From NCBI GenBank assembly GCA_003151795.1, contig PLYL01000006.1, forward strand, positions 1 to 54,300: a DNA stretch of 54,300 nucleotides. Reading direction: 5' to 3'. Below the pieces are notes generated by a model, which saw only the letters and a program-made list of their open reading frames with translations, was not told the origin of the DNA and made no database searches. A program made the translations under genes and the position numbers. This DNA comes from Candidatus Yanofskybacteria bacterium (GTDB lineage Bacteria > Patescibacteriota > Minisyncoccia > 2-02-FULL-40-12 > GWA2-44-9). Of the stretch, positions 2,265-51,179 are shown in pieces (position 1 is the stretch's first letter; each line of letters starts with the position of its first letter).

Positions 2265-2265
2265 A

Positions 2266-3138
2266 TTATATTGTTTGTTTATTAATATTATCAAAAGCCA
2301 GTTTATGATATTCTTCCTGAATTTCAATACCAATAGAATTTCTGTCTAAATTGAAGGCAACTATAGATGTTGTGCCCGAACCTAAGAATGGGTCCAAAAC
2401 AGTATCACCAGGCTTTGTAAAAAGTTTAATAAACCATAAAGGAAGCTCTTTAGGAAAGACGGCGCTATGGCTTTTATTAGAGCTTTCAGTTGCCATCAAA
2501 AGTACGTTGGTCGGATATGCTAATTCACGACCAACCCATTTGGAAACATTTTTTCCAAAGCCACTACCAACTCTTGAATTGTCTCTTCGTTTATCAGTTT
2601 CGCTAAGATTTTTTAGTCGACTCTTGGCCCAGTCGCCCATAGGTACCCGTACTTCATCCTGGTACATATTAAAATCTTTTTGTTTATTGAATTGAAGAAG
2701 CCGTTCCCAGGAATCCCGGAAACGGTTAGGCCATTTTCCTGGAAAACAATTTTTCTTATGCCAAATGAACTCTTCTGTCCAAAACCAGCCCTGTTTCCTC
2801 ATTGCCACGATCAGCTCCATAACGTAGGTGTGTCTCTCGCTATTAACAACTTTTTCTTTTATATTCAAAACAAATGTTCCTTTTGGTTTTAATACACGTA
2901 GCAATTCTTTTGTTATAGGTAAAAACCACTCGACATATTTATCAGGGCCAACTCCTCCGTATGTACTTTTCCTTTGATCAGCATAAGGGGGTGATGTAAT
3001 AATTAAATCTACAGAATTATCTTCTAGATTTTTAAGAACATCAAGAGAATCACCGAGAATTATATCGGCTTTTATTTTCGTCCTTGCCTTCTGGTTAAAT
3101 AAGTCGTTTTTTAGGATGGTGTTAATGGTCATGAGCAA
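2266..3138 (-). CDS. DNA methyltransferase, beta-class N4-cytosine/N6-adenine (SPPY type)
   Basis: Motif IV (TSPPYADQR) is near the N-terminus and motif I (DPFLGSGTT) near the C-terminus. The order IV then I defines the beta class. SPPY rather than DPPY leans towards N4-cytosine. Confidence 0.85.
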   Translation of the reverse strand: MLMTINTILKNDLFNQKARTKIKADIILGDSLDVLKNLEDNSVDLIITSPPYADQRKSTYGGVGPDKYVEWFLPITKELLRVLKPKGTFVLNIKEKVVNSERHTYVMELIVAMRKQGWFWTEEFIWHKKNCFPGKWPNRFRDSWERLLQFNKQKDFNMYQDEVRVPMGDWAKSRLKNLSETDKRRDNSRVGSGFGKNVSKWVGRELAYPTNVLLMATESSNKSHSAVFPKELPLWFIKLFTKPGDTVLDPFLGSGTTSIVAFNLDRNSIGIEIQEEYHKLAFDNINKQTI

Positions 3139-3611: not shown

Positions 3612-4742
3612 TTACTGTACAAACAGGAAATAAACAACCCCCACACTGAAAACAGTAATAAGTACATATAAAAGCCACGTAGGGATATTCATGCTGTATT
3701 CGGGAATACGGTCGCCTTTGGATTTGGCTTTGGCGTAGAGGAAGACGACCAGGATTTGTTCGATGGCCAGGGCGACACCGCCGGCGAGACTGATAATGCC
3801 GATGAAGGTGCGGATGCCGGCCAGGAACAAGACCATCGGCGGAGCGACAACCAGGAGCCAGGCGTTGAAGCGATGAATTTTAAAATCCTGATGAAAAGTG
3901 CTGGTCATCGCCGAAGCGAGCATCAAAAATGAAGTCGTGATGGCAAAGGCGCCAAAGAGCGAAATCAAGATGGTAATATTGCTTCCCAAAAATTGATACA
4001 AACCGGAAACCGCATCGGACGTAGTCGTCAGGCCGGAAACACCGACGACCGTCGTGGCAAAGACGGCGTAAAGGCCAGCCGTGAATAACACCGCCAAGCT
4101 GATGGCCGACCAGAGTTTGCGTTCCTGGCCGACGAGAAGCTGGCGCTGAATCGGCACGGCCAGTAATCCCCCGAAAGCAAAAAGCAAGACGCCATAAGGC
4201 AAAGCGAGGTTAGCTCGGTTAAAACCGGTGAAATTGGACAAATGAATCGAATGCCAGCCCGCAAACAAAATGAGGCCCATTACCGCGACAAATAGTCCGC
4301 TGAAAAATAATTCCACGTGGGAAACCGTTTTAATCCCCCGCAAAACCGCCAGCGAGAGGACAACGCCGAAGAGTACGCTGTATGTGGCCACGGGGGCATA
4401 GAAAAAAGGCGAGAGAAGCGTATTTAAAAAACCGCCGGAGATGATGATCGCGGCTAAGAGGCCGACATAACCCATCAGTACGGCCGAGAAAAAAAGCAGC
4501 CGCTGGGCAGACGGGCCGAGATAGAGCCGAGCGTAGCCCATAATCTGATGCTGGGCGTGCGTCCGCAGAATCACCTCGCCGTACATCAAATCAATCAGCA
4601 GGGTCGCCAAGCCAATCGCCACCAATAACCCCATCCCCACCCCAAAACCCGCTTGAGCAAAAGCGTACGGCAATCCGAAAATCCCAACTCCGACCATGCT
4701 TCCCACCAACACCGCGGTGGCATAAAAGAATTTTTTATTCAT
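3612..4742 (-). CDS. amino acid permease (aromatic amino acid / AAAP-like transporter)
   Basis: About 11 TM helices. The N-terminus MNKKFFYATAVLVGSMVGVGIFGLPYAF is typical of amino-acid transporters. I chose the start at ATG 4742 (M32 of the track ORF) because the terminator of the upstream gene lies at 4783-4814. Confidence 0.7.
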   Translation of the reverse strand: MNKKFFYATAVLVGSMVGVGIFGLPYAFAQAGFGVGMGLLVAIGLATLLIDLMYGEVILRTHAQHQIMGYARLYLGPSAQRLLFFSAVLMGYVGLLAAIIISGGFLNTLLSPFFYAPVATYSVLFGVVLSLAVLRGIKTVSHVELFFSGLFVAVMGLILFAGWHSIHLSNFTGFNRANLALPYGVLLFAFGGLLAVPIQRQLLVGQERKLWSAISLAVLFTAGLYAVFATTVVGVSGLTTTSDAVSGLYQFLGSNITILISLFGAFAITTSFLMLASAMTSTFHQDFKIHRFNAWLLVVAPPMVLFLAGIRTFIGIISLAGGVALAIEQILVVFLYAKAKSKGDRIPEYSMNIPTWLLYVLITVFSVGVVYFLFVQ

Positions 4743-4782
4743 ACTGAAAATAGTATACCAGTCAGACCCATAAAAAAGAAAC

Positions 4783-4814
4783 TGCCGAACGAGACCACTT
4801 GGTCTCGTTCGGCA
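4783..4814 (-). terminator. intrinsic terminator of ORF 4825-6132
   Basis: A 14-bp stem (TGCCGAACGAGACC / GGTCTCGTTCGGCA) with a 4-nt loop, followed in - sense by GTTTCTTTTTTA. Confidence 0.75.
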
Positions 4815-4824
4815 TGACACTTGT

Positions 4825-6132
4825 TCATCCTGCAAACGGTCTGCAGATTGCCCGCTTCGTTTCGTAGTAGCGGAGACGAAGCGTGCGACGTTCGGGCGGC
4901 AACGCCTTCAAGGTCGCTGCATAAGAAGCCTCTGCCGACGTGGGGCATGTGAGGTACCGATACGCATCATTGATGCTTCGTTCAGCCCGCTCTTCTGCGA
5001 GCCGCTTCTGTTCAGACTTGTACTCCGCAGTCTTCTGGTATTCGAGTTGCCGAAGACCGAGCCAGATCGACAGAGCCACGACGGCTACACTTGCTACCAA
5101 TATGGCTCCGAGGGTCAGGCCAATCTTAACCAACAGGACCCACCCCAGCAGTTTCAGTTCCAAAGCCAATTGGAAAAAAAACTTCGCTGGAGCCCACAGA
5201 ACCACCATGAGAGCCGATAGATACCCGATATCCAGTCGCTCGTGTACGATGTGGATAGTGGCGAAATAGAGCAAGAATGCCGCCGGGCTGATCAATAAGC
5301 GAAAAGGAACCCACTTACCGTCGGCACGTTGAACACTCCACGCGCTTCGCATGTGGATTAACGGACGTTTGAACCCATACTGGGGCATATAGACCGTCGG
5401 CCAGATCTCGTCGATGTCGCCAAGGAAAACTTGCCGCCAGTCCAAGTCTCTCGCGACAACGAGCGCCGAACCGAGAAAAACCGCCATGCGAACGACGGCT
5501 TTGACTGTCCACCAGAATAGCATCACAATGAGCTGATAAGTGAACGCGCCAATCATTCGGCGGCGGAACGCGCACTGATCTACAGGCGCGAAATCAAACC
5601 ACAGATTGACGTAGCGTTGCAACCACTGGGACGGTTCTGCGGCAAAGTGGCCCTTGTCCACCTCGACCTCAAGCGGGTCAGCTTGAGGTAGCTTGGAAGC
5701 GCCGAACGGAACCGAGGAAAAGTACTCCTTAATTTCGGTTCGGTCGGCGTCCAGTATGTCCTCCTCGTAGTACCTAGAATTTCTCCGGGATAGCACCTCT
5801 TTGCGAAGTTTCTTCATCTGGTTCGAATACGGCCAGATGAGACGGGCAAAGATCAAGTGCTTGCCAGGGAACCGGAAGCCAACGTACGTCATGGCTTCCT
5901 CGAACGGGCGGAGTTGGCGGTCTTCCGCGCCGTTTTCGTAAGCAACGGTGATCAGGACTTGCACTTGCGTCGCCTTTACTTCGAGAAGCTTGGCTCGATC
6001 GGAAGGGTCGATGCACCACCGAAGAGGGATGGTTGGATTATCCAGCCCTCCTTTGTCTGTAAGCAATCTCAACATGACTACCTTTTCTGCTACTTTCGGA
6101 TGATATCCGTGGCGTAGCGCCAAAATTTTCAA
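4825..6132 (-). CDS. hypothetical membrane protein: soluble N-domain, about 5 TM helices, charged C-tail
   Basis: 435-aa ORF, GC-rich (about 57% in a hand-counted line). It has its own promoter and terminator. The start is uncertain: TTG at 6132 or ATG at 6075. No family recognised. Confidence 0.5.
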   Translation of the reverse strand: MKILALRHGYHPKVAEKVVMLRLLTDKGGLDNPTIPLRWCIDPSDRAKLLEVKATQVQVLITVAYENGAEDRQLRPFEEAMTYVGFRFPGKHLIFARLIWPYSNQMKKLRKEVLSRRNSRYYEEDILDADRTEIKEYFSSVPFGASKLPQADPLEVEVDKGHFAAEPSQWLQRYVNLWFDFAPVDQCAFRRRMIGAFTYQLIVMLFWWTVKAVVRMAVFLGSALVVARDLDWRQVFLGDIDEIWPTVYMPQYGFKRPLIHMRSAWSVQRADGKWVPFRLLISPAAFLLYFATIHIVHERLDIGYLSALMVVLWAPAKFFFQLALELKLLGWVLLVKIGLTLGAILVASVAVVALSIWLGLRQLEYQKTAEYKSEQKRLAEERAERSINDAYRYLTCPTSAEASYAATLKALPPERRTLRLRYYETKRAICRPFAG

Positions 6133-6220: not shown

Positions 6221-8551
6221 TTACTTGAGAGCCACCTTTAGCACTTCATCCATCGTCTTCACGAAGAAGAATTTGATGTCGCGTTGGATTTCTTTAGGGA
6301 TATCGATAAGGTCTTTTTTGTTTTCGAACGGCGCGATAACGGTTTTGATGCCGGCCCGATGGGCGGCGAGAACTTTTTCTTTCAATCCGCCGATGCCGAG
6401 CACTTTGCCGCGCAACGTGACCTCGCCGGTCATGGCCACTTCTTTGCGGACAAGACGTTTGAGGAATAAAGAAACCAGAGTCGTGGTAATGGCGATACCC
6501 GCCGACGGACCTTCTTTTTTGACCCCGCCGGACGGCGCGTGCAGATGGATATCTTCCTTGCGCAAATCTTCCTTAACGCCATTGCGCGCGGCGTAGGCCC
6601 GGGCCCACGAGAGCGCGGCTTGAGCTGATTCTTTCATCACGATACCCAGCTGGCCCGTCAAGATTAGTTTTCCGGTGCCCGGCATACGGATGGCTTCGAT
6701 GTTAATCAAGTCTCCGCCGACGGGCGTCCAGGCCAAACCGGTCGCTCGGCCGATTTCATCCTTCTGCTCGGCCACGTCGTAGGTGAATTTAATCGGGCCA
6801 AGATAGGTCTCAATGGCTTCTTTGCCGACGCTGATGGTTTTGGTCGAAGATGATTCCACCAGTTTGCGGGTAATTTTGCGGATAACAGTGGCGAGCTGGC
6901 GTTCGAGCTCGCGGACGCCGGCTTCGCGGGTGTGATTGCGGATGACGTCCATCACCGCCGAGTCTTGGAAAGTTAAACTGCGCTTTTTTAAGCCGTGGTC
7001 TTTGAAAAGCCGCGGCAAAAGGAAATTCTTGGCGATATGGAATTTCTCCTGTTCGGTGTAGCCTGGGAATTCAATAATTTCTAAGCGGTCGCGCAAGGCC
7101 GGCGGAATCGTATCGAGGCGGTTGGCTGTGGCGATGAACAATACATCGGACAAATCAAACGGCACTTCCAGATAATGATCCGAGAAGGCGTGGTTCTGTT
7201 GCGGGTCGAGAGCTTCGAGCAAAGCCGAAGACGGGTCGCCTCGGAAATCCGAACCGACTTTGTCGATTTCATCGAGCATAAAGACGGGATTTCTGACTTT
7301 GGCGGTTTGAATGCCCTGAATCAACCGGCCGGGCATGGCGCCGACATAAGTCCGGCGGTGGCCGCGGATTTCGGCTTCATCCCGCAAACCGCCCAGCGAG
7401 ACGCGGGCAAATTTACGGCCGAGGGCGCGAGCGATGGACTGGCCGACCGAAGTCTTGCCCGTCCCTGGCGGACCGACCAGACAGAGAATCGGGCCCTTTA
7501 ATTTGCCGACTTGTTTTTGGACGGCGAGGTATTCCAGGACGCGTTCTTTAACTTTCGGCAAACCGTAGTGGTCTTCGTTGAGGATTTTCTCGGCTTCTTT
7601 TAAATCAATTTTTTCTTTGGTTTTCTTGGCCCAGGGCAATTCACTCAATAAATCTAGGTAACTGCGGATATACGAACCTTCGGGATTGAAGGCCGGCATC
7701 TTACCCAATCGGCCCAATTCTTTGAGGGCTTTTTCTTGGACGTCTTTAGGCATGCCGGCAGACATAATCTTGGCGCGGATGGAGACCAGCTCGTCTTTCT
7801 CATCATCGACGCCGAGTTCTTTTTCGATGCTCTTTAATTGCTCGCGGAGAAATAACTCTTTCTGCATCTTGCCGATTTGTTTTTTAGTTTCTTTGACGAC
7901 GCTCTTTTCGGTTTCCAGAATCTGGACTTCGCGCGAAAGATACATATTGAGCTGGCGCAAAATATCAAGCATGCTTTCCAGTTCCAGGATGCGCTGCTGA
8001 TTCTCGACTTCCAAATTCAAATTTACCGTCATCAGGCTGGCGATGTGCTCGGTGTCTTTGAGCTGGGACATCATATAAATAATTTCGGGCAGGATGGTCG
8101 GGAAAGAACGGGCTTCGGAAATAACTCGAAATTGCTCAATCGCTCGGCGCAGGATAGCCTTTTCGTCCAGGCTGTCGCGGATAATCAGGGCCATCGGTTC
8201 GGCATTCACCCGCAGAAACGGCTCTTCAGACACAAAGTCAGTAATGCGCGCTCGAACGAGACCTTCAACGTCAATCTTAGAGGAACCGTCGGGCAGTTTA
8301 AAAACCGAAACAATCCGGCCGATGGTGCCAACCTCGAATAAATCATTGCGAGAAATATCGTCTTCGCTATTCTTTTGGGTTACAAAGAGAACGAGCCGGT
8401 TGTGGGCCTGGGCGAATTCCAGCGCCCCGATCGATTTCGGACGCTGAATAATAATCGGGATGACGATCTTGGGGAAGAGCACGGTATTCTTGAGGGCAAT
8501 CACCGGCAATTCCTCGGGGATAATAATGTTGTTGATTTTGAATTCGGACAT
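6221..8551 (-). CDS. lon: ATP-dependent Lon protease (LonA)
   Basis: 776 aa. It has an N-terminal LON domain, the Walker A motif GPPGTGKTS, and a C-terminal protease with the PSAGIA serine motif. Confidence 0.95.
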   Translation of the reverse strand: MSEFKINNIIIPEELPVIALKNTVLFPKIVIPIIIQRPKSIGALEFAQAHNRLVLFVTQKNSEDDISRNDLFEVGTIGRIVSVFKLPDGSSKIDVEGLVRARITDFVSEEPFLRVNAEPMALIIRDSLDEKAILRRAIEQFRVISEARSFPTILPEIIYMMSQLKDTEHIASLMTVNLNLEVENQQRILELESMLDILRQLNMYLSREVQILETEKSVVKETKKQIGKMQKELFLREQLKSIEKELGVDDEKDELVSIRAKIMSAGMPKDVQEKALKELGRLGKMPAFNPEGSYIRSYLDLLSELPWAKKTKEKIDLKEAEKILNEDHYGLPKVKERVLEYLAVQKQVGKLKGPILCLVGPPGTGKTSVGQSIARALGRKFARVSLGGLRDEAEIRGHRRTYVGAMPGRLIQGIQTAKVRNPVFMLDEIDKVGSDFRGDPSSALLEALDPQQNHAFSDHYLEVPFDLSDVLFIATANRLDTIPPALRDRLEIIEFPGYTEQEKFHIAKNFLLPRLFKDHGLKKRSLTFQDSAVMDVIRNHTREAGVRELERQLATVIRKITRKLVESSSTKTISVGKEAIETYLGPIKFTYDVAEQKDEIGRATGLAWTPVGGDLINIEAIRMPGTGKLILTGQLGIVMKESAQAALSWARAYAARNGVKEDLRKEDIHLHAPSGGVKKEGPSAGIAITTTLVSLFLKRLVRKEVAMTGEVTLRGKVLGIGGLKEKVLAAHRAGIKTVIAPFENKKDLIDIPKEIQRDIKFFFVKTMDEVLKVALK

Positions 8552-16370: not shown

Positions 16371-16594
16371 GCCAATTTCTCCTTAAATTTAAAGTACCAC
16401 AAACCAATATAAAAACAAGAGCGAGCGAAAGATAAACCTCAGCACGAAGTCGCGCAAACCCCGAAGCTAGGCTGATGCCGATGGTTTCGGAGGCAGAAGC
16501 CGAGGTGCTTGGTGAGGGGTTGAGCGTCTAGATAAAAACCTGCCGCAGGAGCAGGTTTATTATCGGTCGTGATGAGATTTATCTAAGCGAGCGC

Positions 16595-31830: not shown

Positions 31831-33219
31831 TTACCGGAATAGCCATTGCTTGCGCTCGAACCATTTGGTGGCAACCAGATTCAAGAACGTGCGGGTCACC
31901 ATCGTGGCGGTGAACAGACTGGTCAGGACGCCGATGCCGAGAGTCAGGGCAAAACCTTTGACGATTGAGCTCGTGGTCGCGTAGAGCACCACCGCGCCGA
32001 TGAGCGTCGTCACGTGGCTGTCCCGAACCGACAACCAGGCGCGCGAAAAGCCCTCGTGCATGGCCACGTGCAAGGACTTGCCTCCGGCGAGTTCTTCTTT
32101 CATGCGCGCGAAAATCAGAATATTGGCGTCTACCGCCATCCCCAGCGACAGAATAAATCCGGCGATGCCGGCCAGGGTCAGCGTGACGGGAATTAATTTA
32201 TACAAAGAAAGTACAATCAGGACATAGATAAGCAAAGCTATAACCGAAATGACCCCCGGCAAACGATAAAATAAGATCATAAAAAGTGCCACGAAAATCA
32301 AGCCGTAGACGCCGGCTTTCAAACTGCGAGCCAAAGAATCCTGACCGAGACTGGCGCCAATCGTCTGCTGGCTGACCAACGCAATCGGCACCGGCAGAGC
32401 GCCGGAATTCAAGCGCTCGACCAGGGTCTTAGCTTCGTCGGGCGTGAAGTTGCCGCTGATAACGGCGTGACCGTCGGTAATGGCGCTCTGGACGGTCGGG
32501 GTTGAGATGGGCAGGCCATCCAGATAAATCGCGACGGTCTTACCCAGGTTGGCTTGGGTAATCTCGCCGAATAGTTTGGCGCCTTGCGCGTTTAGTTCCA
32601 GACTGACTTGGGGAGACAGAGATTGATTATTAAAAGATACTTGGGCAGTACTTAAACCGGAACCGTTCAAACCCGAAGACTGATAGCATGGGTCAACTTT
32701 AAAGGCGAGCAGGAATTGATTTAAAGTCGCGGCATTCGCCGGCGCGCAGAGAACCGCCGCGGTCAGGCCTTGAGCCTTGGCCCCGAGCACTTGCTTGATA
32801 ATGGCGTCGCCTTGGGCGGTCGGGAGGATGGTTTTAAATTCGAGGAATGGCGTCTGACCAATCAACTGAATGGCTTGGTTCACGTCATGGATGCCGGCCA
32901 AATCGACAATTAAACGATCAGTGCCCGAAATCTGAACCACGGGCTCCGAAACGCCGAATAAATTCACCCGCCGCTCGACGACGTCGCGCACGCCCTGCAT
33001 CGCGTCGCCCGCCGAACCGGCTACCTTGGAAAGATCAGCCTGATAAATAAGATGCGTACCGCCCAAAAGATCCAAACCCAAATGAAAAGCGGGCGCGGAA
33101 ATATTAACTTTCGGGATGTGGAGTTTTTGAGCCGCTTTGTTTATCCATTGCGGGGCCACAAAAGCCAAAAGAAGAAGTGAACCGAGAATAGTTGCGATTA
33201 GGAATAAATTTTTCCGCAT
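31831..33219 (-). CDS. secD: protein translocase subunit SecD
   Basis: 462 aa with a periplasmic P1 domain and a C-terminal 6-TM SecD/RND-like block. Confidence 0.85.
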   Translation of the reverse strand: MRKNLFLIATILGSLLLLAFVAPQWINKAAQKLHIPKVNISAPAFHLGLDLLGGTHLIYQADLSKVAGSAGDAMQGVRDVVERRVNLFGVSEPVVQISGTDRLIVDLAGIHDVNQAIQLIGQTPFLEFKTILPTAQGDAIIKQVLGAKAQGLTAAVLCAPANAATLNQFLLAFKVDPCYQSSGLNGSGLSTAQVSFNNQSLSPQVSLELNAQGAKLFGEITQANLGKTVAIYLDGLPISTPTVQSAITDGHAVISGNFTPDEAKTLVERLNSGALPVPIALVSQQTIGASLGQDSLARSLKAGVYGLIFVALFMILFYRLPGVISVIALLIYVLIVLSLYKLIPVTLTLAGIAGFILSLGMAVDANILIFARMKEELAGGKSLHVAMHEGFSRAWLSVRDSHVTTLIGAVVLYATTSSIVKGFALTLGIGVLTSLFTATMVTRTFLNLVATKWFERKQWLFR

Positions 33220-33242: not shown

Positions 33243-33312
33243 ATGCCGAGTAGTGTAAGTCAAGCGTTTGCTAAATTGCCGAAGGCAACTTGACTTTCTA
33301 CTACTCGGGCAT
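33243..33312 (-). repeat. 70-nt imperfect palindrome upstream of secD
   Basis: ATGCCGAGTAGTGTAAGTCAAG (33243-33264) pairs with CTTGACTTTCTACTACTCGGGCAT (33289-33312). The apical part forms TTGCC-UUCG-GCAA in - sense. Confidence 0.7.
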
Positions 33313-33356: not shown

Positions 33357-33385
33357 TTTACATGATTAGCCATCTATTGTATACT
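33357..33385 (+). promoter_or_regulatory. promoter P1 (paralogous to P2)
   Basis: TTTACA, 17-nt spacer (ending TTG), TATACT. The 5' UTR contains ATGGGTAGGGAGGCC. Confidence 0.6.
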
Positions 33386-33415
33386 ACTTGCATGGGTAGG
33401 GAGGCCCTTTGCACA

Positions 33416-33658
33416 ATGGCCATCGGGACTCTTAAAAAAGATAGGCCACAAAAAGAACCGCCACATTCGAAACCGCCAAAGAAGAGAAAAATCTTGCGCC
33501 GATACATCGGCGCGTGGAAAGTGAGATTCAGTTGCGGTGAGACCGACTATCATCCGGAGGCGGCATCAAATCAAATCGGTGAACTGGCTTGTAATGTTCA
33601 TCGGCTCAGCCACCCACGCTGTCACCCGACATACTTCACTCGCAGATTCAGCCAGTAA
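33416..33658 (+). CDS. small basic Cys/His-containing ORF (80 aa); coding status uncertain
   Basis: An AGGGAGG SD lies upstream of ATG 33416. Sequence: MAIGTLKKDRPQKEPPHSKPPKKRKILRRYIGAWKVRFSCGETDYHPEAASNQIGELACNVHRLSHPRCHPTYFTRRFSQ. It is followed by the same 3' box as the next gene. Confidence 0.35.
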   Translation: MAIGTLKKDRPQKEPPHSKPPKKRKILRRYIGAWKVRFSCGETDYHPEAASNQIGELACNVHRLSHPRCHPTYFTRRFSQ

Positions 33659-33659
33659 C

Positions 33660-33715
33660 GCCCGCGACGGCGCGCACCAAACGAGGTGCCCGTCGGACGC
33701 GGGCACTTTGTTTTT
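33660..33715 (+). terminator. conserved 18-nt 3' box plus intrinsic terminator (copy 1)
   Basis: GCCCGCGACGGCGCGCAC (33660-33677), then GTGCCCG, a 7-nt loop, CGGGCAC and TTTGTTTTT. Confidence 0.7.
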
Positions 33716-33759
33716 ATCTGTGCTCAAAAGTGTCCGTACGGACACTTTTGAGCACAGAT
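33716..33759. promoter_or_regulatory. perfect 44-bp palindrome (operator-like or cruciform)
   Basis: ATCTGTGCTCAAAAGTGTCCGT (33716-33737) is the exact reverse complement of ACGGACACTTTTGAGCACAGAT (33738-33759). Confidence 0.8.
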
Positions 33760-33779
33760 CAATCGAGAGATTCTTTTTC

Positions 33780-33808
33780 TTTACTTATTTACTTAAATAT
33801 TGTATAGT
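33780..33808 (+). promoter_or_regulatory. promoter P2 (paralogous to P1)
   Basis: TTTACT, 17-nt spacer (ending TTG), TATAGT. The 5' UTR contains ATGGCTCAGGGAGGCC. Confidence 0.6.
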
Positions 33809-33835
33809 ATTCTATGGCTCAGGGAGGCCTAAGGT

Positions 33836-34468
33836 ATGACTAGACAGGAGCTCTTAGACAAGGTGACCCCAAAACGGACAATCCCGTTTTTTGGGACTCT
33901 CGACAACGATCTCTACGTGGTAGTCCGTAATGCCATCATGGCGATGGACGCGGAAACAACGGCGCCGATTACGATCGTCTTCGACAGCCTGGGTGGAGGC
34001 GCTTTCATGTCTTTTCAAGTCGGAGACATACTCAGGATGACCAAGTCAGAGGTTATCGGAATTGCCCTTCAGGCAAATTCAGCCGCCCTGACTGTATTGC
34101 AATACTGCGACCGACGGATACTGGTTCCCTCGGGGAGTGTCCTTATTCATTCCGCGCAGGCCAGATCAGAAGACCTAGCGGGCTACAAACATGACGAGTA
34201 CTGGCGGAGTAGAATGGAGTTGATAGATGCCAACCTCACTCACTACGACCGTAAGCTCCAAAAACTGTTTTCGGAGCGGACGGGAGCGAGTCAAGAGCGA
34301 ATCCTGGAACTCATGAAGCGGGGCGACAATCTCAGTTGGCCCATCTTCGCCGAAGAAGCGCTGGAGCTGAAGTTCGTCGACTCGATTCTTCCGGCAGACT
34401 ACAAGCTCTTCTTTCCGCCGGCATTCCCGAAACCAGCAACACCGGCCGAAGAAAAGAAAGAACTCTAG
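33836..34468 (+). CDS. ClpP/crotonase-fold serine peptidase-like protein (orphan, divergent)
   Basis: 210 aa. ITIVFDSLGGGAFMSF...GIALQANSAALTVL...SVLIHSAQ aligns by eye with ClpP YINSPGG...GQAASMG...IMIHQP, so a candidate Ser and His are present. Confidence 0.55.
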   Translation: MTRQELLDKVTPKRTIPFFGTLDNDLYVVVRNAIMAMDAETTAPITIVFDSLGGGAFMSFQVGDILRMTKSEVIGIALQANSAALTVLQYCDRRILVPSGSVLIHSAQARSEDLAGYKHDEYWRSRMELIDANLTHYDRKLQKLFSERTGASQERILELMKRGDNLSWPIFAEEALELKFVDSILPADYKLFFPPAFPKPATPAEEKKEL

Positions 34469-34523
34469 CCCGCGACGGCGCGCACGACAAAAAGTGCCCG
34501 CGACGTCTGCGGGCCCTTTTTTT
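34468..34523. terminator. conserved 18-nt 3' box plus bidirectional terminator (copy 2)
   Basis: GCCCGCGACGGCGCGCAC (34468-34485), then GCCCGC, a 7-nt loop, GCGGGC, CC and TTTTTTT. It overlaps the stop of the convergent nuclease gene. Confidence 0.7.
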
Positions 34524-36003
34524 AATCGTCGAGCGACTCTTTTTCTTTCAGCTTGGAGGGCTTTTGATCGGCCAGCCAATCTTTGATGCGCATCGTGGCG
34601 CGGACGTCGTCTTCGTTGTAGCGGAGGATTTTTTTGATGATAGCCGGGTCCCCTTTTTCGAGCCATTCTTTGTACCAGAGAATAGATTCAGCCCCGCCGG
34701 CGTGCGGGTCGTCCCATTTGTAATTCAAATACGCGCCCACGTCTTTTAATGAATAAAAATAAATCGGCAGGACGGCCGAATCGACGAGTTTGGTGTGCAG
34801 GTCAATCGTGTTCTCCCTGAATTTTTCTAAGAGGCTAGTCGGCGCGCCGTAGCGAGTCGCGAGGCGTTCGAAGACCTGGCGCTCAAAGAAAGCATAATGA
34901 TAAATCACGAAATCTTCGAGCGAAGCCAGATAATCTAAAAACTCCAGCCATGCTTTCGGCTCTTCTTCTTTGCTCTTGGCCAGACAGTATTTATACTCGA
35001 CGGTGTCCTTCTGCGTGTCTTTCACTAAAAATCCCAGTAAGTAATCAACGCCGTTGAGCGGGTCGGATTCGATATCAAAATAAACTTCATAGCGGACGGC
35101 GGGGAAATTCGGCTTGCGCGTAATCATGGGCTGGCCGTTGGTCAGCACTTTAGCCTGATTCGAGAATCGGACAATTTTGTCGAACGGCCAATCTTCGAGT
35201 TTTTCTTGAAGCTCGCTCGGTTCGGCTGAAGCCAAAGCGTCCACGGTTTTGATGCCAATTTCGTAGAGTCGGCGCTGATCGGCTTGGCTGATACGGTAAA
35301 TCAGCGAGACGTCGTTACAGCCCTGCGTCTCGGCCACGCACAATGAGTACCACGGCGTGCGCTTGCAGCCGGCTTTCAAAAACGGCGCGGGCTTTTCGCC
35401 GTTCAGGATTTTTTCGATTTGCTGGCGCGTGAGATGGAATTGGTCGATATATTCGGCGATAGTAAATCCGACTTCGTGGCCCTGCGCGTCGATGATATAC
35501 GCCTGCTCGGGCCGAACGCCCTGGATGCGCTCAAGAATTAAACTATAAAAAATTAATTGAAACTTGTACTCATCGCGCATGTCGAGCGAATTCTGGGCGT
35601 CATAGACGACATAGTAGTGGTCGCCGAACACGGAGTGTTCGTCCCGACCGGAGCGTCGGGACAGTTCCGCTACTGGCCGAGCCTCGAGGAAATCGGGCAT
35701 ACCCACCCAGTCTTCGGACATCAGCACGCCATGATAGATATTCTTGCCTTGCTTCATCAGCTCGACTGTGGCAATGAAGGCTTCGTCTAGGTCTTTAAAT
35801 AAATCCGGATTAATCTGCTCGAATTTTTTGTGAGCGGCCAGACCCTTGTCCACGTCCATCATCTTGCCCTTATAAATCATATCCAACAGCGGCGGCACCT
35901 CCCGCTTATACTGCCCATCCCCATAAATGTCATACCAAATCCAATGCGGACACTGAAAAAATTTATAAAAATAATCTCCGTAGAGTTTGGATTTAGAATC
36001 CAT
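34522..36003 (-). CDS. TM0106-family RecB-like nuclease (PD-(D/E)XK N-domain plus RNase-H-like C-domain)
   Basis: The N-terminus FFQCPHWIWYD is Cas4/RecB-like, and VYFDIESDPLNGVDYLLGF is typical of the RNase_H_2-like half. Start at ATG 36003. Confidence 0.6.
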   Translation of the reverse strand: MDSKSKLYGDYFYKFFQCPHWIWYDIYGDGQYKREVPPLLDMIYKGKMMDVDKGLAAHKKFEQINPDLFKDLDEAFIATVELMKQGKNIYHGVLMSEDWVGMPDFLEARPVAELSRRSGRDEHSVFGDHYYVVYDAQNSLDMRDEYKFQLIFYSLILERIQGVRPEQAYIIDAQGHEVGFTIAEYIDQFHLTRQQIEKILNGEKPAPFLKAGCKRTPWYSLCVAETQGCNDVSLIYRISQADQRRLYEIGIKTVDALASAEPSELQEKLEDWPFDKIVRFSNQAKVLTNGQPMITRKPNFPAVRYEVYFDIESDPLNGVDYLLGFLVKDTQKDTVEYKYCLAKSKEEEPKAWLEFLDYLASLEDFVIYHYAFFERQVFERLATRYGAPTSLLEKFRENTIDLHTKLVDSAVLPIYFYSLKDVGAYLNYKWDDPHAGGAESILWYKEWLEKGDPAIIKKILRYNEDDVRATMRIKDWLADQKPSKLKEKESLDD

Positions 36004-36433
36004 ATTTTTTATTAAAATCAGCCATAGCAATCATAGCAAACTGATCAAAATAAGATTGTAAAGAATTTAAATCGCTCTGATATTTAGTCCCGCCAGTCAC
36101 CGCGTCTAGGAATACGTCCTGGGCCCGGGCGATTTCTTGCCGACGGCCATGCCATCTCTTGTCGACCAACGTCAAATAGAATAGCTCCAGTGCTCGCTCA
36201 ATCGCGGCCTGAAAGCGTTTTTTATCCTTCCCCTGCGCTTTCGCCGCCCGAGACACCTCGCTTCCGATATTCCCCATCTGTTCGGCCAATGAAAACTTAA
36301 ACCATCGACCTGCTGCGGCTTCTTTGTGTATAAAACTATTTGAGGCAAGCTGCTCTTCCATAATCTTTTTTAACTCGGCTCGAGTGATTGGTTCTTTGAT
36401 AATTACAATATCCATATTTCTAGTATATGTCAT
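35993..36433 (-). CDS. hypothetical all-alpha protein (possibly a degenerate MazG-like four-helix bundle)
   Basis: FSLAEQMGNIGSEVSRA...AIERALELFYLTL. It overlaps the nuclease start by 11 nt. The start is uncertain. Confidence 0.3.
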   Translation of the reverse strand: MTYTRNMDIVIIKEPITRAELKKIMEEQLASNSFIHKEAAAGRWFKFSLAEQMGNIGSEVSRAAKAQGKDKKRFQAAIERALELFYLTLVDKRWHGRRQEIARAQDVFLDAVTGGTKYQSDLNSLQSYFDQFAMIAMADFNKKYGF

Positions 36434-47044: not shown

Positions 47045-47209
47045 GTTTAACGTGTACGTTTAGGAATTGATTTTATTATATCATTATTAGGAGTAATATA
47101 AGCGTAAAGGTTCTATGGGTACCCGCCGGCTACTGCCGCAGGGCACTGCGCTCCCCTTCGGTCGCTTGTTGCATTATTCTAAAAATATGGTATTATAGAC
47201 GCATCGTCT

Positions 47210-48883: not shown

Positions 48884-51103
48884 CTACCAAGTTCGGCCGA
48901 GTTTCTGGACAAAGAGTTTGGCGTCGGCTTCAAAGCTAGGATCGATTTGGGCGGTAATGTGCGCTTGGGCGATAGCATCGTCAATCCGGCCGACGCTGGC
49001 GTAAGCAGCCGCCAAAGAAGCGTGGTACTGGGGGCTGTTGGGAACTAATTTGACTAATCCTTCATATACTGTCACGAGGTGCTGGAAATCGTTGCGCTTG
49101 ATATAAATGTTGGCAAGATTTAGATAATCGTTCTCGGCTAATGTGTATCCTTTCTTAATTGCTTCATCCATGTTAACCAAGGCTTTGTCGGTCTCGCCGG
49201 CTTGCATCTCAACGGCACCGAGATACCAATATGAAATACCGACATCGGGATTAAGGTCAACCGCTTTCTGGAAGGCGACTTCAGCCTTCGGATAATCCTT
49301 TTTGTTAAGATAGGCCTGGCCGACTTCATAATAGGTGCGGACGAATGTCGGCGAATAACTCAACGCCTTTGTGGAATGCTTCAAGGCCTCGTCATTATAC
49401 GGCGAATTAGGGTCTGATTTGCCAAGAATAATGTTTAAGCGGGATAGGTATAGCTCCGGCAAATAATCTTCAGTGTTCTCCGCCGCATTTTTTTCTTCCA
49501 AAGCAATAATTTCTTTAAAAATATCGGCTACTTCCGGCGTTATTTTATTACTATTACTATAGTCCAGCAGGAACTGGGCAAATTGGTTTCGATATTCATA
49601 TCGGCCATTTCCGTCGAAGGAAACGGCATCCCGGTAAGACGCGACCGCGGCGGTGAAATCATTGTTGTAGCCCGCGATAATGCCTCGGGTCGTGGCGTAA
49701 TTGGCAATGGCCGTCCGAACATTCGTCTGATACGCCAAATAAACGGCGCCGACGATAACGATAGCACCAAGCACGAACGTTAATCCTCCGGAAACCGGCC
49801 GGCCCGTTTTTGTTTCAATTCTCGGAGATTCCGGCCGGTTCAAAAACGAAATGTAGCCCAAGGCGCTGAAGAAGACCAGAAAATTCGCCGAAGTGTCGAA
49901 TATAAACGCGTTGTGAATTATATACGCGATGACCATGGAGATAAGGCCAATGGCCGGAACGCGGAATCCAGGCTTATTTTTTAAACGCCACAGCGCCCGG
50001 AATATCACGCCAAATAACGCTAGGTAGGCCAGAAACCCAAGCAGGCCCATCGTGACGAGAATTTCGACAAACATGTTGTGAGCTCGGTCAAACATGGTTT
50101 CTGAACTGGGGCCATTAAAGAATTTGGGATTGAAATATTTTGAAAACGGAATATTAAAATTTTCCGGGCCCCAGCCGAAAATAATTCTTTGGGGGCTCTC
50201 GCTCCAGCCTTTCAAACCGGCTTGCCAAGCCCAGAACCGGGTTTGGACGGTATAACTGGAGAGGGAAAGATCGGTCACCCGGCGCAAATATTGGGAGTTT
50301 TGAACAATTGCGCTATTTTTGAAAGCAAAAGCAAACCCGACGAACAGCACAACAAAGACCAGCATGGAAATCAAGACTTTTTTAGCCAGTTTTGAATTGG
50401 TTTGGGCAAAATACAAAAAAACAAAAACAAGAAAACCAATGCTTATTCCCAAAATAGAACCGCGGACCACAGTCATAAATACCGCCAGACTCATAACGGC
50501 CGCGGAAATTAGGAAAAAATTACGCTTGCTCTTTACGGCAGCCCCGAATCCTAGAATCAGCGCCAAGAAAACATTCAGAATCTGATAGCCGGCGAAAAGA
50601 GCCGGATTGCCAATCGTGCCGAAAATACGCTCCCGACCGCCGGAACCGATAAAGAAAGCTATATTAGTTCGTTGGCCAAATCCATACAGCGCCGAGAGCA
50701 CGCCGACGCCCACTGTAATTTCTAAGAACCTGAACCAGTCGTCTTTGGTTCGAAGAACCGAAGTTAGGATGATATAAAAGATGAAATAGTGCCAGAAGCT
50801 ATAGAGGCCACCCATGCGTTCAAGGGTGCCCCAGAAACTCTGATAGACATTTATACTCGTAAACGTCGTGACAGTGAAGGCGAGCGTGAAACTAAGAAAA
50901 GCCCAAAAGAAGATGTCGCGCCGAGGTAAAAAGGACCGATCCTGCCAGATTAAGACCAGGTAGAGAGCCAGCATAATCTCAACTAGACTTCTAAAGAGAA
51001 CTATTTTCCCAAAATGAAACGGCGAAATATACTGTGAAAAAATAACCAGCGGCATAAACGCGGCCGCGTAGACGCAATACTTCAATATTTTGTGGATATT
51101 CAT
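48884..51103 (-). CDS. O-antigen-ligase-like polytopic membrane protein fused to C-terminal TPR repeats
   Basis: 739 aa. The N-terminal roughly 440 aa are multi-TM and Wzy_C-like. The C-terminal part has TPR-like repeats (AYLNKKDYPKAEVAFQKAVDLNP and others). Confidence 0.7.
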   Translation of the reverse strand: MNIHKILKYCVYAAAFMPLVIFSQYISPFHFGKIVLFRSLVEIMLALYLVLIWQDRSFLPRRDIFFWAFLSFTLAFTVTTFTSINVYQSFWGTLERMGGLYSFWHYFIFYIILTSVLRTKDDWFRFLEITVGVGVLSALYGFGQRTNIAFFIGSGGRERIFGTIGNPALFAGYQILNVFLALILGFGAAVKSKRNFFLISAAVMSLAVFMTVVRGSILGISIGFLVFVFLYFAQTNSKLAKKVLISMLVFVVLFVGFAFAFKNSAIVQNSQYLRRVTDLSLSSYTVQTRFWAWQAGLKGWSESPQRIIFGWGPENFNIPFSKYFNPKFFNGPSSETMFDRAHNMFVEILVTMGLLGFLAYLALFGVIFRALWRLKNKPGFRVPAIGLISMVIAYIIHNAFIFDTSANFLVFFSALGYISFLNRPESPRIETKTGRPVSGGLTFVLGAIVIVGAVYLAYQTNVRTAIANYATTRGIIAGYNNDFTAAVASYRDAVSFDGNGRYEYRNQFAQFLLDYSNSNKITPEVADIFKEIIALEEKNAAENTEDYLPELYLSRLNIILGKSDPNSPYNDEALKHSTKALSYSPTFVRTYYEVGQAYLNKKDYPKAEVAFQKAVDLNPDVGISYWYLGAVEMQAGETDKALVNMDEAIKKGYTLAENDYLNLANIYIKRNDFQHLVTVYEGLVKLVPNSPQYHASLAAAYASVGRIDDAIAQAHITAQIDPSFEADAKLFVQKLGRTW

Positions 51104-51179
51104 CCCGTTAGAAGTAGCCCCGCCAAGGTCCTCCGGACTCGTCCAGCCTTCGGCGGACGAGCGAGACTTCTAACGGGAT
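51102..51179 (-). repeat. type-2 start-codon-abutting hairpin element (78 nt)
   Basis: ATCCCGTTAGAAGT (51102-51115) is perfectly complementary to ACTTCTAACGGGAT (51166-51179). The element ends at the ATG (51103-51101). Confidence 0.8.

What the first reader, a model, noticed from the sequence alone, without database searches (positions are those of the whole stretch)
33357..34523. Two tandem transcription units reuse the same promoter, 5' UTR/RBS and 3' box for a small Cys/His ORF and an orphan ClpP-like peptidase
- The promoters match in -35 box, spacer length and -10 box. P1 (33357-33385) is TTTACA-17-TATACT and P2 (33780-33808) is TTTACT-17-TATAGT. Both spacers end in TTG.
- The downstream leaders also match: ATGGGTAGGGAGGCC and ATGGCTCAGGGAGGCC.
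- Both ORFs are followed immediately after the stop codon by an identical 18-mer, GCCCGCGACGGCGCGCAC (33660-33677 and 34468-34485). After it come an A-rich spacer and a GC hairpin terminator.
- The 5' part of the box (GCCCGCG) can also pair with the 3' arm of the terminator (CGCGGGC). It therefore competes with the terminator's own 5' arm, giving an antiterminator-like alternative fold.

Unrelated neighbouring genes do not normally share this much flanking sequence. Inference: this is a modular two-gene system built by duplicating an expression cassette, or it is under common control acting on both the promoter and the 3' box. The function is unknown. The small product is basic at its N-terminus and carries C/H residues (SCGETDYH...ACNVH...HPRCH).
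Basis: partly seen in the sequence, partly recalled or inferred. Interest (0 to 1): 0.7.

Follow-up and report, generated by a model that had tools for sequence, protein, structure and literature searches.

The report
Duplicated promoter–terminator slot with swappable genes
Between two housekeeping genes of an uncultured groundwater bacterium lies a small variable spot where unrelated genes sit between copies of one promoter/leader and one terminator carrying a conserved 18-base box; in this genome the slot is duplicated, holding a tiny zinc-type protein and a stripped-down ClpP-like protease.

Summary
Promoters P1 and P2, the leaders and the exact 18-mer box occur only at these two units in 54.3 kb.

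Comparison with about 10 related Paceibacteria (Patescibacteria) contigs changes the reading. The secD–recB-like intergenic region is a variable islet. It is empty in some relatives, single in others, and double in the window and in L059.

Every unit has the same frame: a TTTAC-type promoter, a GGAGG..CTTTG leader, an ORF, the box and a bidirectional terminator. The cargo is unrelated: an 80-aa Cys/His protein, a ClpP-like peptidase, small membrane proteins and a 154-aa unknown.

A 22-nt relic of the recB 3' end sits between the window's two units, so the frame was duplicated by recombination.

Both ORFs are real genes (dN/dS 0.12 and 0.18). They occur without each other elsewhere, so they are not an obligate pair.

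The box is under selection. Between genomes it is 88% identical, against 42–44% for the adjacent spacer and loop, while synonymous sites are saturated. It looks like a decayed copy of the terminator hairpin and can pair with the whole terminator, giving a second hairpin of near-equal stability. Covariation supports only the canonical terminator. The box's function is unproven.

The parts
31831..33219 (-). secD, the conserved left flank of the variable islet
   Evidence: Pfam SecD/SecF domains. It is 83-90% aa identical in syntenic relatives.
33245..33310 (.). About 66-nt palindromic insertion in the secD promoter region. It is not part of the units.
   Evidence: Arms at 33245-33264 and 33289-33310. 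The empty-site relative L056 reads TTTAAACATAGTGCATTTTTTATGTCAAC without it.
33357..33385 (+). Promoter P1 (TTTACA-17-TATACT)
   Evidence: The -10 and leader are 36/45 identical to the promoter/leader in front of the ClpP-like gene in L002.
33392..33415 (+). Leader 1, ATGGGTAGGGAGGCCCTTTGCACA, with Shine-Dalgarno GGGAGG at 33399-33404
   Evidence: Homologous leaders stand in front of unrelated cargo in L002, L059 and, more loosely, L047.
33416..33658 (+). 80-aa basic Cys/His protein gene, not called in the source assembly
   Evidence: It is 64% aa identical to P0001 with no indels. dN/dS is 0.12, and differences by codon position are 18/17/41. The family has 7 representatives among 1.84 billion proteins. 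It has no Pfam, NCBIfam, PHROG, PADLOC or PDB match.
33660..33677 (+). 3' box copy 1, GCCCGCGACGGCGCGCAC
   Evidence: Between-genome identity is 0.88.
33679..33713 (+). Terminator hairpin B1 (core GTGCCCG..CGGGCAC at 33686-33706) with A-tract and T-tract
   Evidence: Covariation supports the extended hairpin.
33713..33762 (.). 50-nt near-perfect palindrome inserted after the T-tract. It is absent from unit 2 and from all relatives.
   Evidence: I1, 96% complementary. There are no other copies in related DNA.
33761..33782 (+). Relic of the recB-like gene's 3' end, marking the duplication junction
   Evidence: It is 22/22 identical to the true recB 3' end of L001. It is 90% identical to the window's own recB end at 34529-34548 (D11).
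33780..33808 (+). Promoter P2 (TTTACT-17-TATAGT)
   Evidence: It is 34/35 identical to the promoter upstream of the small ORF in L001.
33814..33835 (+). Leader 2, ATGGCTCAGGGAGGCCTAAGGT
33836..34468 (+). 210-aa divergent ClpP-like (S14) peptidase gene
   Evidence: Pfam CLP_protease 1.6e-11. PDB ClpP chains 3e-9. Ser82 and His105 align with E. coli Ser97 and His122. dN/dS is 0.18 against L002.
34468..34485 (+). 3' box copy 2, which overlaps the TAG stop by one base
34489..34523 (+). Terminator hairpin B2 (core GTGCCCGCGACGTCTGCGGGCCC at 34494-34516), shared with the convergent recB-like gene
   Evidence: scores it as terminator-like on both strands.
34522..36030 (-). TM0106-family RecB-like nuclease gene, the conserved right flank
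   Evidence: NCBIfam TIGR03491 9e-95. Syntenic in relatives.

Best explanation
The finding is a duplicated 'expression slot' in a cassette-swapping islet between secD and a recB-like gene, in a groundwater Paceibacteria (Patescibacteria) lineage.

One slot consists of these parts, in order:
1. A TTTAC-type sigma-70 promoter.
2. A short leader of the form GGAGG..C(C/T)CTTTG..ATG.
3. One or two ORFs.
4. An 18-nt box.
5. An A-rich spacer.
6. A bidirectional intrinsic terminator.

In relatives the islet is empty, single or double. The frame stays the same while the cargo between the start codon and the box is unrelated.

Shown:
- In the window the slot was duplicated by homologous or unequal (Campbell-like) recombination across the box/terminator/recB-end segment.
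- This left a 22-nt recB relic in front of P2.
- One copy carries the locus's common resident, a small basic Cys/His protein. The other carries a truncated ClpP-like serine peptidase.

Inferred: cargo is exchanged by homologous recombination through the conserved flanks, as in minimal mobile elements.

The box is a decayed tandem copy of the terminator hairpin that has been kept by selection. In RNA it can pair with the entire terminator segment (hairpin A). Hairpin A competes with the canonical hairpin B.

My working model is an inference held at about 0.3. A ribosome finishing at the stop codon, which lies 0-11 nt upstream, covers the box, so translated transcripts fold B and terminate cleanly. 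Untranslated or released transcripts fold A, which is a poorer terminator but a very stable 3' end.
For: Locus comparison:
- The window has two units.
- L001 has the small ORF only, driven by a P2-type promoter that is 34/35 identical. A terminator remnant, GTGGGCACTTTGTTTAC, sits just after its -10.
- L002 has the ClpP-like gene behind a P1-type -10 and leader (36/45 identical) and followed by the exact box.
- L047, L048 and L051 have two small membrane-protein genes followed by the box and terminator.
- L058 has the small ORF with a variant box.
- L059 has two tandem units with other cargo (119-aa and 154-aa proteins). Each has a TTTACT-17 promoter (27/35 identical to each other) and its own box plus terminator.
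- The site is empty in L056/L057, L061 and L064/L065.

Duplication: window 33761-33782 is 22/22 identical to the recB 3' end of L001.

Constraint:
- secD and recB synonymous sites are saturated (pS 0.66-0.76).
- Between-genome identity is 0.88 for the box and 0.91-0.94 for the hairpin arms. It is 0.42 for the spacer and 0.44 for the loop.

Structure:
- Hairpin B has 3 pairs with compensatory changes. 0/500 shuffles reach the observed covariation score, and 11/500 reach three such pairs.
- Hairpins A and B lie within 1.4-5.9 kcal/mol of each other in all 9 copies, and A is the MFE in 6.
- The box occurs only at this locus in 188 kb of related DNA.

No integrase, transposase or Clp ATPase was found among the window ORFs scanned with Pfam.
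Against: - There are no expression data. Promoters and terminators are consensus-level predictions.
- Only about 10 related loci were available, and several are short contigs.
- How cargo is replaced so exactly at ORF boundaries is not explained by simple homologous recombination.
- Helix A is invariant, so it has no covariation support.
- The loop-shuffle test favouring A (mean z -1.3) is confounded by the box's resemblance to hairpin B.
- Whole genomes were not searchable for further box copies. The genome-contig scan returned only chance hits in GC-rich taxa.
- The ribosome-occlusion step is pure inference.
Confidence: 0.65

Rival explanations
1. A dedicated two-gene functional system. The small Cys/His protein and the ClpP-like peptidase work together, for example as adaptor, substrate or regulator plus protease. 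They are co-regulated through the shared promoter and box.
For: - The two genes are adjacent in the window.
- A terminator remnant after the P2-type promoter in L001 suggests a gene, possibly the ClpP-like one, once stood upstream of the small ORF there.
- Both genes are under purifying selection.
Against: - The small ORF stands alone in L001, L058 and L052/L053.
- A ClpP-like homologue (51% identical) sits between TrmB and methyltransferase genes, without the small ORF or the box.
- The same promoter/leader/box frame carries unrelated membrane proteins and a 154-aa protein in L047, L051 and L059.
- Promoter types are swapped between the two genes across genomes.
Confidence: 0.1
2. A site-specific cassette system, integron-like. 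The box plus imperfect hairpin is a recombination site, like attC, at the 3' end of each cassette. A recombinase encoded elsewhere excises and inserts the cassettes.
For: - Cargo is replaced exactly upstream of the box plus hairpin.
- The long imperfect hairpin A resembles a folded attC in outline.
- Occupancy of 0, 1 or 2 units varies between relatives.
Against: - There is no tyrosine recombinase or HUH transposase among the window ORFs scanned, nor among genes called within 5 kb of the locus in relatives.
- Each unit has its own promoter.
- There is no GTTRRRY/RYYYAAC pair at the boundaries (sequence).
- No array is longer than two units.
- The box is sequence-conserved, whereas attC sites are conserved in structure.
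- No real match was found in viral contigs.
Confidence: 0.08
3. The box is a protein-binding site on DNA or RNA, for example for the small basic Cys/His protein or another regulator. Its sequence conservation reflects that binding rather than RNA refolding.
For: - The 18-mer is conserved in sequence, not by compensatory change.
- The small protein has a Lys/Arg-rich N-terminus. It has a conserved set of candidate metal ligands: C40, H62, C64 or H66, and C69.
Against: - The box is present in L047, L051 and L059, where the small ORF is not at the locus.
- The box-to-hairpin spacing varies from 4 to 9 nt.
- No DNA-binding fold was recognised. AF2 pLDDT is 61 and Foldseek E-values are above 1.
Confidence: 0.12
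4. A neutral scar. The shared flanks are only leftovers of a recent duplication, and the box has no function.
For: - The duplication is certain.
- The box looks like a decayed copy of hairpin B (GCCCGCGAACGTCGCGGGCAC versus GCCCGCGA-CGGCGCG--CAC).
Against: - The box is 17-18/18 identical in L001, L002, L047 and L051, genomes whose synonymous sites are saturated relative to the window. The neighbouring spacer and loop have diverged to 42-44% identity.
- Both P1-type and P2-type promoters exist in other genomes, so the promoter duplication is old.
Confidence: 0.05

Closest known systems
Minimal mobile elements (MMEs) of Neisseria
   Same: Two conserved flanking genes with different whole-gene cassettes between them in different strains, incorporated by homologous recombination (definition quoted in PMC3082526). 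Here secD and the recB-like gene flank an empty site or one of five different cargo sets.
   Different: The cargo is framed by a conserved, repeatable promoter/leader and a conserved box plus terminator inside the islet. The frame itself is duplicated in tandem in two genomes. Replacement boundaries coincide with the start codon and the box. Transformation-driven exchange is not shown.
Phage 'morons': autonomous promoter-gene-terminator units inserted between genes (from my own knowledge)
   Same: Each unit is a self-contained monocistronic transcription unit with its own promoter and intrinsic terminator. It is inserted between, and opposite to, the surrounding genes.
   Different: The context is chromosomal housekeeping, not prophage. 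The regulatory flanks are homologous between units with unrelated cargo. No match was found in viral contigs.
Integron gene cassettes with attC
   Same: A variable ORF is followed immediately by an imperfect hairpin-forming element. The number of units varies.
   Different: There is no integrase, no attC consensus ends, cassettes carry their own promoters, there are at most two units, and the element is conserved in sequence.
Bidirectional intrinsic terminators and terminator/antiterminator attenuators
   Same: Hairpin B is a GC stem with complementary A- and T-tracts between convergent genes, supported by covariation. The box offers a mutually exclusive alternative pairing of comparable energy.
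   Different: The competing element lies at the 3' end of an ORF rather than in a 5' leader. No sensor is known. The alternative hairpin still ends 2 nt before the T-tract, so it may also terminate.
ClpP (MEROPS S14) and ClpP-related phage prohead proteases
   Same: Pfam CLP_protease passes its cut-off. Ser and His align with the catalytic residues. Similarity to head-maturation protease families is weak.
   Different: Scores are far below the ClpP equivalog cut-offs. The roughly 20-residue N-terminal axial-loop region is absent. There is a 25-aa Pro-rich C-terminal tail. No Clp ATPase or capsid gene is nearby. Only two relatives were found among 5.8 billion protein clusters.

Membership tests
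Minimal-mobile-element-type variable locus | Two conserved flanking genes with different whole-gene cassettes between them in different strains | tested here: met
   secD and the recB-like gene flank the small ORF and/or the ClpP-like gene, the TM104+TM55 pair, the 119-aa plus 154-aa pair, or nothing.
Minimal-mobile-element-type variable locus | Cassettes incorporated by homologous recombination through the flanks | not testable with these tools
   The only support is the sharp homology boundaries and the recB relic.
Intrinsic (Rho-independent) bidirectional terminator | GC-rich stem followed by a T-tract, with a complementary A-tract upstream | tested here: met
   The terminator scan finds it on both strands. 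94% of cells are paired, and 3 pairs carry compensatory changes.
Intrinsic (Rho-independent) bidirectional terminator | Transcripts actually end there | not testable with these tools
   No transcript data are available.
Terminator/antiterminator attenuator | Mutually exclusive alternative helices of comparable stability | tested here: met
   A and B lie within 1.4-5.9 kcal/mol in 9/9 copies.
Terminator/antiterminator attenuator | Evolutionary (covariation) support for the alternative helix | tested here: inconclusive
   In the outer helix, 6 of 7 pairs never vary, and the covariation score is not above shuffles. The loop-shuffle test is confounded.
Terminator/antiterminator attenuator | A sensor (ribosome, ligand or protein) that selects the fold | not testable with these tools
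   The box starts -1 to +11 nt from the stop codon in all copies. That is compatible with ribosome occlusion, but nothing more.
Integron gene cassette / attC | Adjacent IntI tyrosine recombinase with attI | tested here: not met
   No recombinase domain was found among the window ORFs scanned or in the gene calls of relatives' flanks.
Integron gene cassette / attC | attC with RYYYAAC...GTTRRRY ends; cassettes usually without promoters | tested here: not met
   The sequence shows no such ends. Each unit has its own promoter-like site.
ClpP, MEROPS S14 / Pfam PF00574 | Domain match above the curated threshold | tested here: met
   44.9 bits against a cut-off of 20.2.
ClpP, MEROPS S14 / Pfam PF00574 | Ser-His-Asp catalytic triad | tested here: inconclusive
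   Ser82 and His105 align with E. coli Ser97 and His122 and are invariant. Asp164 is invariant, but its alignment to Asp171 needs a 3-residue indel.
Canonical ATP-dependent ClpP (NCBIfam equivalogs) | Score above the equivalog cut-off, and an N-terminal axial-loop region for ATPase docking | tested here: not met
   Scores are 20.6-41.7 bits against cut-offs of 228-308.6. Alignments start at ClpP residue ~21. No Clp ATPase is in the window; Lon is present at 6221-8551.
Phage moron | Promoter-gene-terminator unit inside a prophage or phage genome | tested here: not met
   The neighbours are SecA, SecDF, a sigma factor, a tRNA synthetase, FtsW, UvrB, RuvA and Lon. Viral scans were negative.

The most novel reading that the evidence does not exclude
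The promoter/leader plus box/terminator frame is a dedicated 'plug-in' expression platform of these reduced genomes. Whole ORFs are exchanged precisely between the start codon and an 18-nt box. The box makes the 3' end a translation-sensing bistable terminator: a terminating ribosome hides the box, so hairpin B forms and transcription stops. Without a ribosome, the box captures the terminator's 3' arm. That would be a 3'-end counterpart of leader attenuation, coupled to a cassette-swapping locus that lacks a recombinase.
Probability: 0.2. Interest if true: 0.7.

Novelty: new variant of a known kind. Interest (0 to 1): 0.45.

Why it matters
Patescibacteria have tiny genomes, and how they gain, lose and express accessory genes is poorly understood. 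This locus shows a compact route. One chromosomal spot has reusable expression signals, and unrelated small genes are swapped and duplicated into it.

The locus also yields three concrete items for follow-up:
- An 18-nt non-coding element conserved across species-level divergence. It gives a testable bistable-terminator hypothesis.
- An unannotated family of roughly 80-aa basic Cys/His proteins.
- A very rare, N-terminally truncated ClpP-like peptidase with no Clp ATPase in the surrounding 54 kb.

If the box proves inert, the result is still useful. It explains the repeated flanks as ordinary recombination at a variable islet, not as a new two-gene system.

Tried and rejected
- Genome-contig scan for box plus hairpin: 43 hits, all in GC-rich Sorangium, Streptomyces and similar genomes. 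These are chance matches, and the clade was not found there.
- Viral scans for the box, the leader and the ClpP-like protein: either nothing, or only contigs with at least 55% GC and no downstream hairpin.
- Rfam: nothing at gathering thresholds in the window or relatives. At relaxed thresholds only spurious hairpin/miRNA matches to the 50-nt palindrome appeared.
- AlphaFold2: the ClpP-like model is unusable (pLDDT 37, 3-sequence alignment). The small protein folds as beta-beta-alpha-beta at pLDDT 61, and its Foldseek PDB search gave no hit with E below 1. The PDB sequence search for the small protein found nothing.
- PADLOC: no defence-system match for either gene.
- Leaderless uORF idea. The ATG at 33392 lies about 7 nt after the -10 and is in frame with the small ORF. 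The ATG at 33814 opens a 9-codon uORF that overlaps the ClpP-like start. I rejected this as a conserved feature, because the frame and stop differ in L002 and L059 and the ATG is absent from L001 and L058.
- Local 4-bp hairpin within the box (CGCG-ACGG-CGCG): no covariation, and it is broken in L058 and L059a.
- DNA-uptake-sequence idea: rejected, because the box occurs only twice in 54 kb.
- Box-like 19-mer inside secD (32973-32991). It is conserved because it is coding sequence, and I treat it as coincidence.
Full report
**1. Observation**

- P1 is TTTACA-17-TATACT at 33357-33385. P2 is TTTACT-17-TATAGT at 33780-33808. Both spacers end in TTG.
- The leaders are ATGGGTAGGGAGGCC (33392-33406) and ATGGCTCAGGGAGGCC (33814-33829).
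- The exact 18-mer GCCCGCGACGGCGCGCAC lies at 33660-33677 and 34468-34485.

The 18-mer has no other match in the window even with three mismatches allowed, where 0.09 are expected. The shared off-consensus promoter pattern occurs with no mismatch only at these two sites. Other strong promoter-like sites in the scanned region use TTGAC-type -35 boxes.

The repeat is longer than reported. The box, spacer and start of the hairpin match at 85% over 33 nt. In addition, 33763-33782 matches 34529-34548 at 90%. The latter segment is the 3' end of the convergent gene.

**2. The genes**

The small ORF is 33416-33658 (80 aa). The second ORF is 33836-34468 (210 aa).

*Small ORF.* It has no match in Pfam, NCBIfam, PHROGs, PADLOC or PDB.
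- Its homologue P0001 is also 80 aa and aligns without indels at 64% identity.
- Differences fall 18/17/41 on codon positions 1/2/3, and dN/dS is 0.12. It is therefore a real gene.
- The source assembly did not call it.
- An exhaustive profile search of 1.84 billion representatives found only seven proteins of 64-91 aa.
- These share Y-x-G-P-W-x-V-x-F-S-C-G, a later His and a Cys-x-Pro. The candidate metal ligands are C40, H62, C64 or H66, and C69. All have a Lys/Arg-rich N-terminus.
- AlphaFold2 gives a beta-hairpin, helix and strand at pLDDT 61. Foldseek finds nothing.

*ClpP-like ORF.* It passes the Pfam CLP_protease threshold at 1.6e-11 and hits solved ClpP chains at 3e-9.
- Ser82 and His105 align with E. 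coli Ser97 and His122 and are invariant.
- Asp164 is invariant, but its alignment to the catalytic Asp is ambiguous.
- It falls far below the ClpP equivalog cut-offs.
- It lacks the roughly 20-residue N-terminal axial-loop region, because alignments begin at ClpP residue ~21.
- It has only two relatives among 5.8 billion protein clusters.
- dN/dS against L002 is 0.18.

No Clp ATPase is in the window. A Lon protease is present at 6221-8551.

**3. Context and taxon**

The units lie on the plus strand, between secD (31831-33219, minus strand) and a TM0106-family RecB-like nuclease gene (34522-36030, minus strand).

The rest of the window is housekeeping. It includes SecA, SecF, a sigma factor, a class II aminoacyl-tRNA synthetase, FtsW, UvrB, RuvA, Mur ligase, Lon and a restriction-modification pair. 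No integrase or transposase was detected.

The window is ENA ERZ27254241 contig k141_583481. The closest named SecD relatives are Candidatus Pacebacteria, Paceibacterota and Yanofskybacteria.

**4. Relatives**

I collected the locus from relatives by three routes: exact-protein look-ups, one metagenome scan for the box, and SecD relatives with 83-90% aa identity.

| Locus | Content between secD and recB (window orientation) |
|---|---|
| L056/L057 | 95 nt. Keeps the short terminator hairpin; no box |
| L061, L064/L065 | About 45 nt; neither hairpin nor box |
| L062 | 220 nt of unrelated sequence |
| L058 | Element X, then a TTTACA-17-TATATT promoter, the small ORF, a variant box (GCCCGCAACGCCGCGCAC), the terminator |
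| L001 | X, a promoter 34/35 identical to the window's P2, a terminator remnant (GTGGGCACTTTGTTTAC), a further TTTACA-17-TATATT promoter, the small ORF, the box with one extra base, the terminator |
| L002 (906 nt) | A -10 and leader 36/45 identical to the window's P1, but driving the ClpP-like gene; then the exact box, the terminator, X reversed |
| L047/L048/L051 (Hainich groundwater) | A TTTACA-17-TATAAT promoter, a related leader, two small membrane-protein genes, the box, the terminator, X reversed |
| L059 | Two tandem units with other cargo (119-aa membrane protein; 154-aa unknown protein). Each has a TTTACT-17 promoter (27/35 identical to each other) and its own box variant plus terminator. 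The first unit's leader is GGGATGAGGAGCCCTTTCACATGG |
| L052/L053 (more distant, GC-rich) | The small-ORF homologue, divergent from secD, with a different terminator |

The frame is therefore a property of the locus, not of these two genes. P1-type and P2-type promoters are exchanged between the two genes across genomes.

The two genes are not obligate partners. A 51%-identical ClpP-like gene sits in an unrelated context without the box.

**5. Duplication**

Window 33761-33782, immediately upstream of P2, is 22/22 identical to the genuine recB 3' end of L001. It is 90% identical to the window's own recB end.

The segment of box, terminator and recB end was therefore copied. This fits unequal crossing-over, or Campbell-type integration of a circularised unit through that segment. 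A 50-nt palindrome (33713-33762) was later inserted into copy 1.

L059 has a different inter-unit junction. Doubling has therefore happened more than once, or is old.

**6. Is the box functional?**

- The genomes compared are saturated at synonymous sites: pS is 0.66-0.76 for secD and recB.
- Nine box-plus-terminator copies from seven genomes were aligned (A3). Between-genome identity is 0.88 for the box and 0.91-0.94 for the hairpin arms. It is 0.42 for the spacer and 0.44 for the loop.
- This mosaic argues for purifying selection, and against recent transfer.
- The box occurs nowhere else in 188 kb of related DNA.
- It is absent, apart from chance GC-rich hits, from the genome and viral collections.

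**7. Structure**

Call the canonical terminator hairpin B. It consists of the A-tract, GTGCCCG, a loop, CGGGCAC and the T-tract.
- It is 94% paired across the alignment.
- It has three pairs with compensatory changes, for example AAACAAAG/CTTTGTTT, AAATAAAG/CTTTATTT and CTAAAG/CTTTAG.
- No shuffle out of 500 reaches its covariation score, and 11 of 500 reach three such pairs.

RNAfold shows that the entire box can pair with the entire terminator segment. Call this hairpin A: the box is the 5' arm, the A-rich spacer is the loop, and GTGC...GCGGGC is the 3' arm.
- A is the minimum-free-energy fold in 6 of 9 copies.
- A lies within 1.4-5.9 kcal/mol of B in all nine.
- A's helices are 92% paired but almost invariant, so covariation is uninformative.
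- A 4-bp hairpin within the box has no support.
- Real loops stabilise A more than shuffled loops do (mean z -1.3). This test is confounded.

The confounder is that the box is itself a decayed copy of hairpin B. Compare GCCCGCGAACGTCGCGGGCAC in L058 and L059b with GCCCGCGA-CGGCGCG--CAC. Any B-like sequence is complementary to the palindromic B.

**8. Mechanism I commit to**

*Shown.* This is a variable islet with a reusable expression frame, and the frame was duplicated by recombination. Both ORFs are under purifying selection. The box and the terminator arms are conserved well above the neighbouring spacer and loop.

*Inferred.*
- Cargo exchange occurs through the conserved flanks, as in minimal mobile elements. 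That class is defined as two conserved genes with different whole-gene cassettes between them, incorporated by homologous recombination (PMC3082526).
- The box acts in RNA as a competing 5' arm. It begins -1 to +11 nt from the stop codon in all copies.
- A terminating ribosome would therefore cover the box and leave B free to terminate.
- Without a ribosome, A forms. A ends 2 nt before the T-tract, so it should be a poorer terminator but a very stable 3' end.
- I give this last step about 0.3.

**9. Verdict**

It is partly wrong: this is not a dedicated two-gene system.

The closest known kinds are MME-type variable loci, phage-moron-like autonomous units, and bidirectional terminators with an attenuator-like competitor. 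It fails the membership tests for integron cassettes and for canonical ClpP.

I rate it a new variant of a known kind, of moderate interest.

Noticed in passing
L047 1438-1666; L048 1107-1335; L001 ~899-1170; L058 ~4745-4960; L002 ~745-906: Element X is about 230-270 nt with roughly 27-nt terminal inverted repeats (TTAAAGTAATGGAAGAGATTTTTCTCA in L047). It sits next to the units in either orientation. Internal blocks are 90-95% identical between genomes whose CDS are only 75-80% identical. It could be a MITE or a structured ncRNA. It has no Rfam match and is absent from the window.
   Followed up: partly
window 33245-33310: A 66-nt palindromic element is inserted into the secD promoter region; compare the uninterrupted sequence in L056. 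On the minus strand it supplies a TTGACT 17 nt upstream of a TAAATC/TTAAAT -10. It may therefore have replaced the displaced -35 box.
   Followed up: partly
window 33713-33762: A 50-nt near-perfect palindrome lies between terminator 1 and the recB relic. It has no other copy in 188 kb of related DNA. At relaxed Rfam thresholds it draws only spurious miRNA-precursor hits.
   Followed up: partly
L051 1796-1859 and L048 11546-11604: A 64-nt hairpin element (CCCAGATAGTAGAATTTTGAAATGCCTTCGGCA...) is inserted after the terminator in L051. It recurs at 98% identity at an unrelated place in L048, so small palindromic elements are mobile in this clade.
   Followed up: no
L054 55-100 and 496-541: An AT-rich distant relative carries a small-ORF homologue (P0005). 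An identical ~43-nt terminator module (AAAAGGAGGACGCAATTTTAGGCGATTGCCTCCTTTTTGTTTA) precedes two successive promoter-plus-small-gene units. This parallels the reuse of regulatory modules around tiny genes seen here.
   Followed up: no
window 51100-51179, 16504-16569, 47121-47152: Three short intergenic stretches match intergenic DNA at non-syntenic places in relatives: L047 6111-6185 at 81%, L051 1586-1651 at 76%, and L062 4771-4960 at 94% over 32 nt. They may be further small repeated elements.
   Followed up: no
window 32973-32991 (inside secD, antisense strand): GCTCGACGACGTCGCGCAC resembles the box (2 substitutions and 1 insertion). It is conserved in all relatives because it encodes part of SecD. 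I judge this a coincidence.
   Followed up: partly
L003 ~2953-2990 and ~3852-3885: The 51%-identical ClpP-like gene in L003 is flanked by two similar segments (GGGGTCGCATAGTGGAAGACGTTCG and GGGGTCGCATAGCGAAGTATGTTCGG). That copy may also sit between repeated sequences.
   Followed up: no
window 1506-3138: A type II restriction-modification pair: an EcoO109I-like endonuclease (1.9e-73) and an N6/N4 DNA methylase.
   Followed up: no
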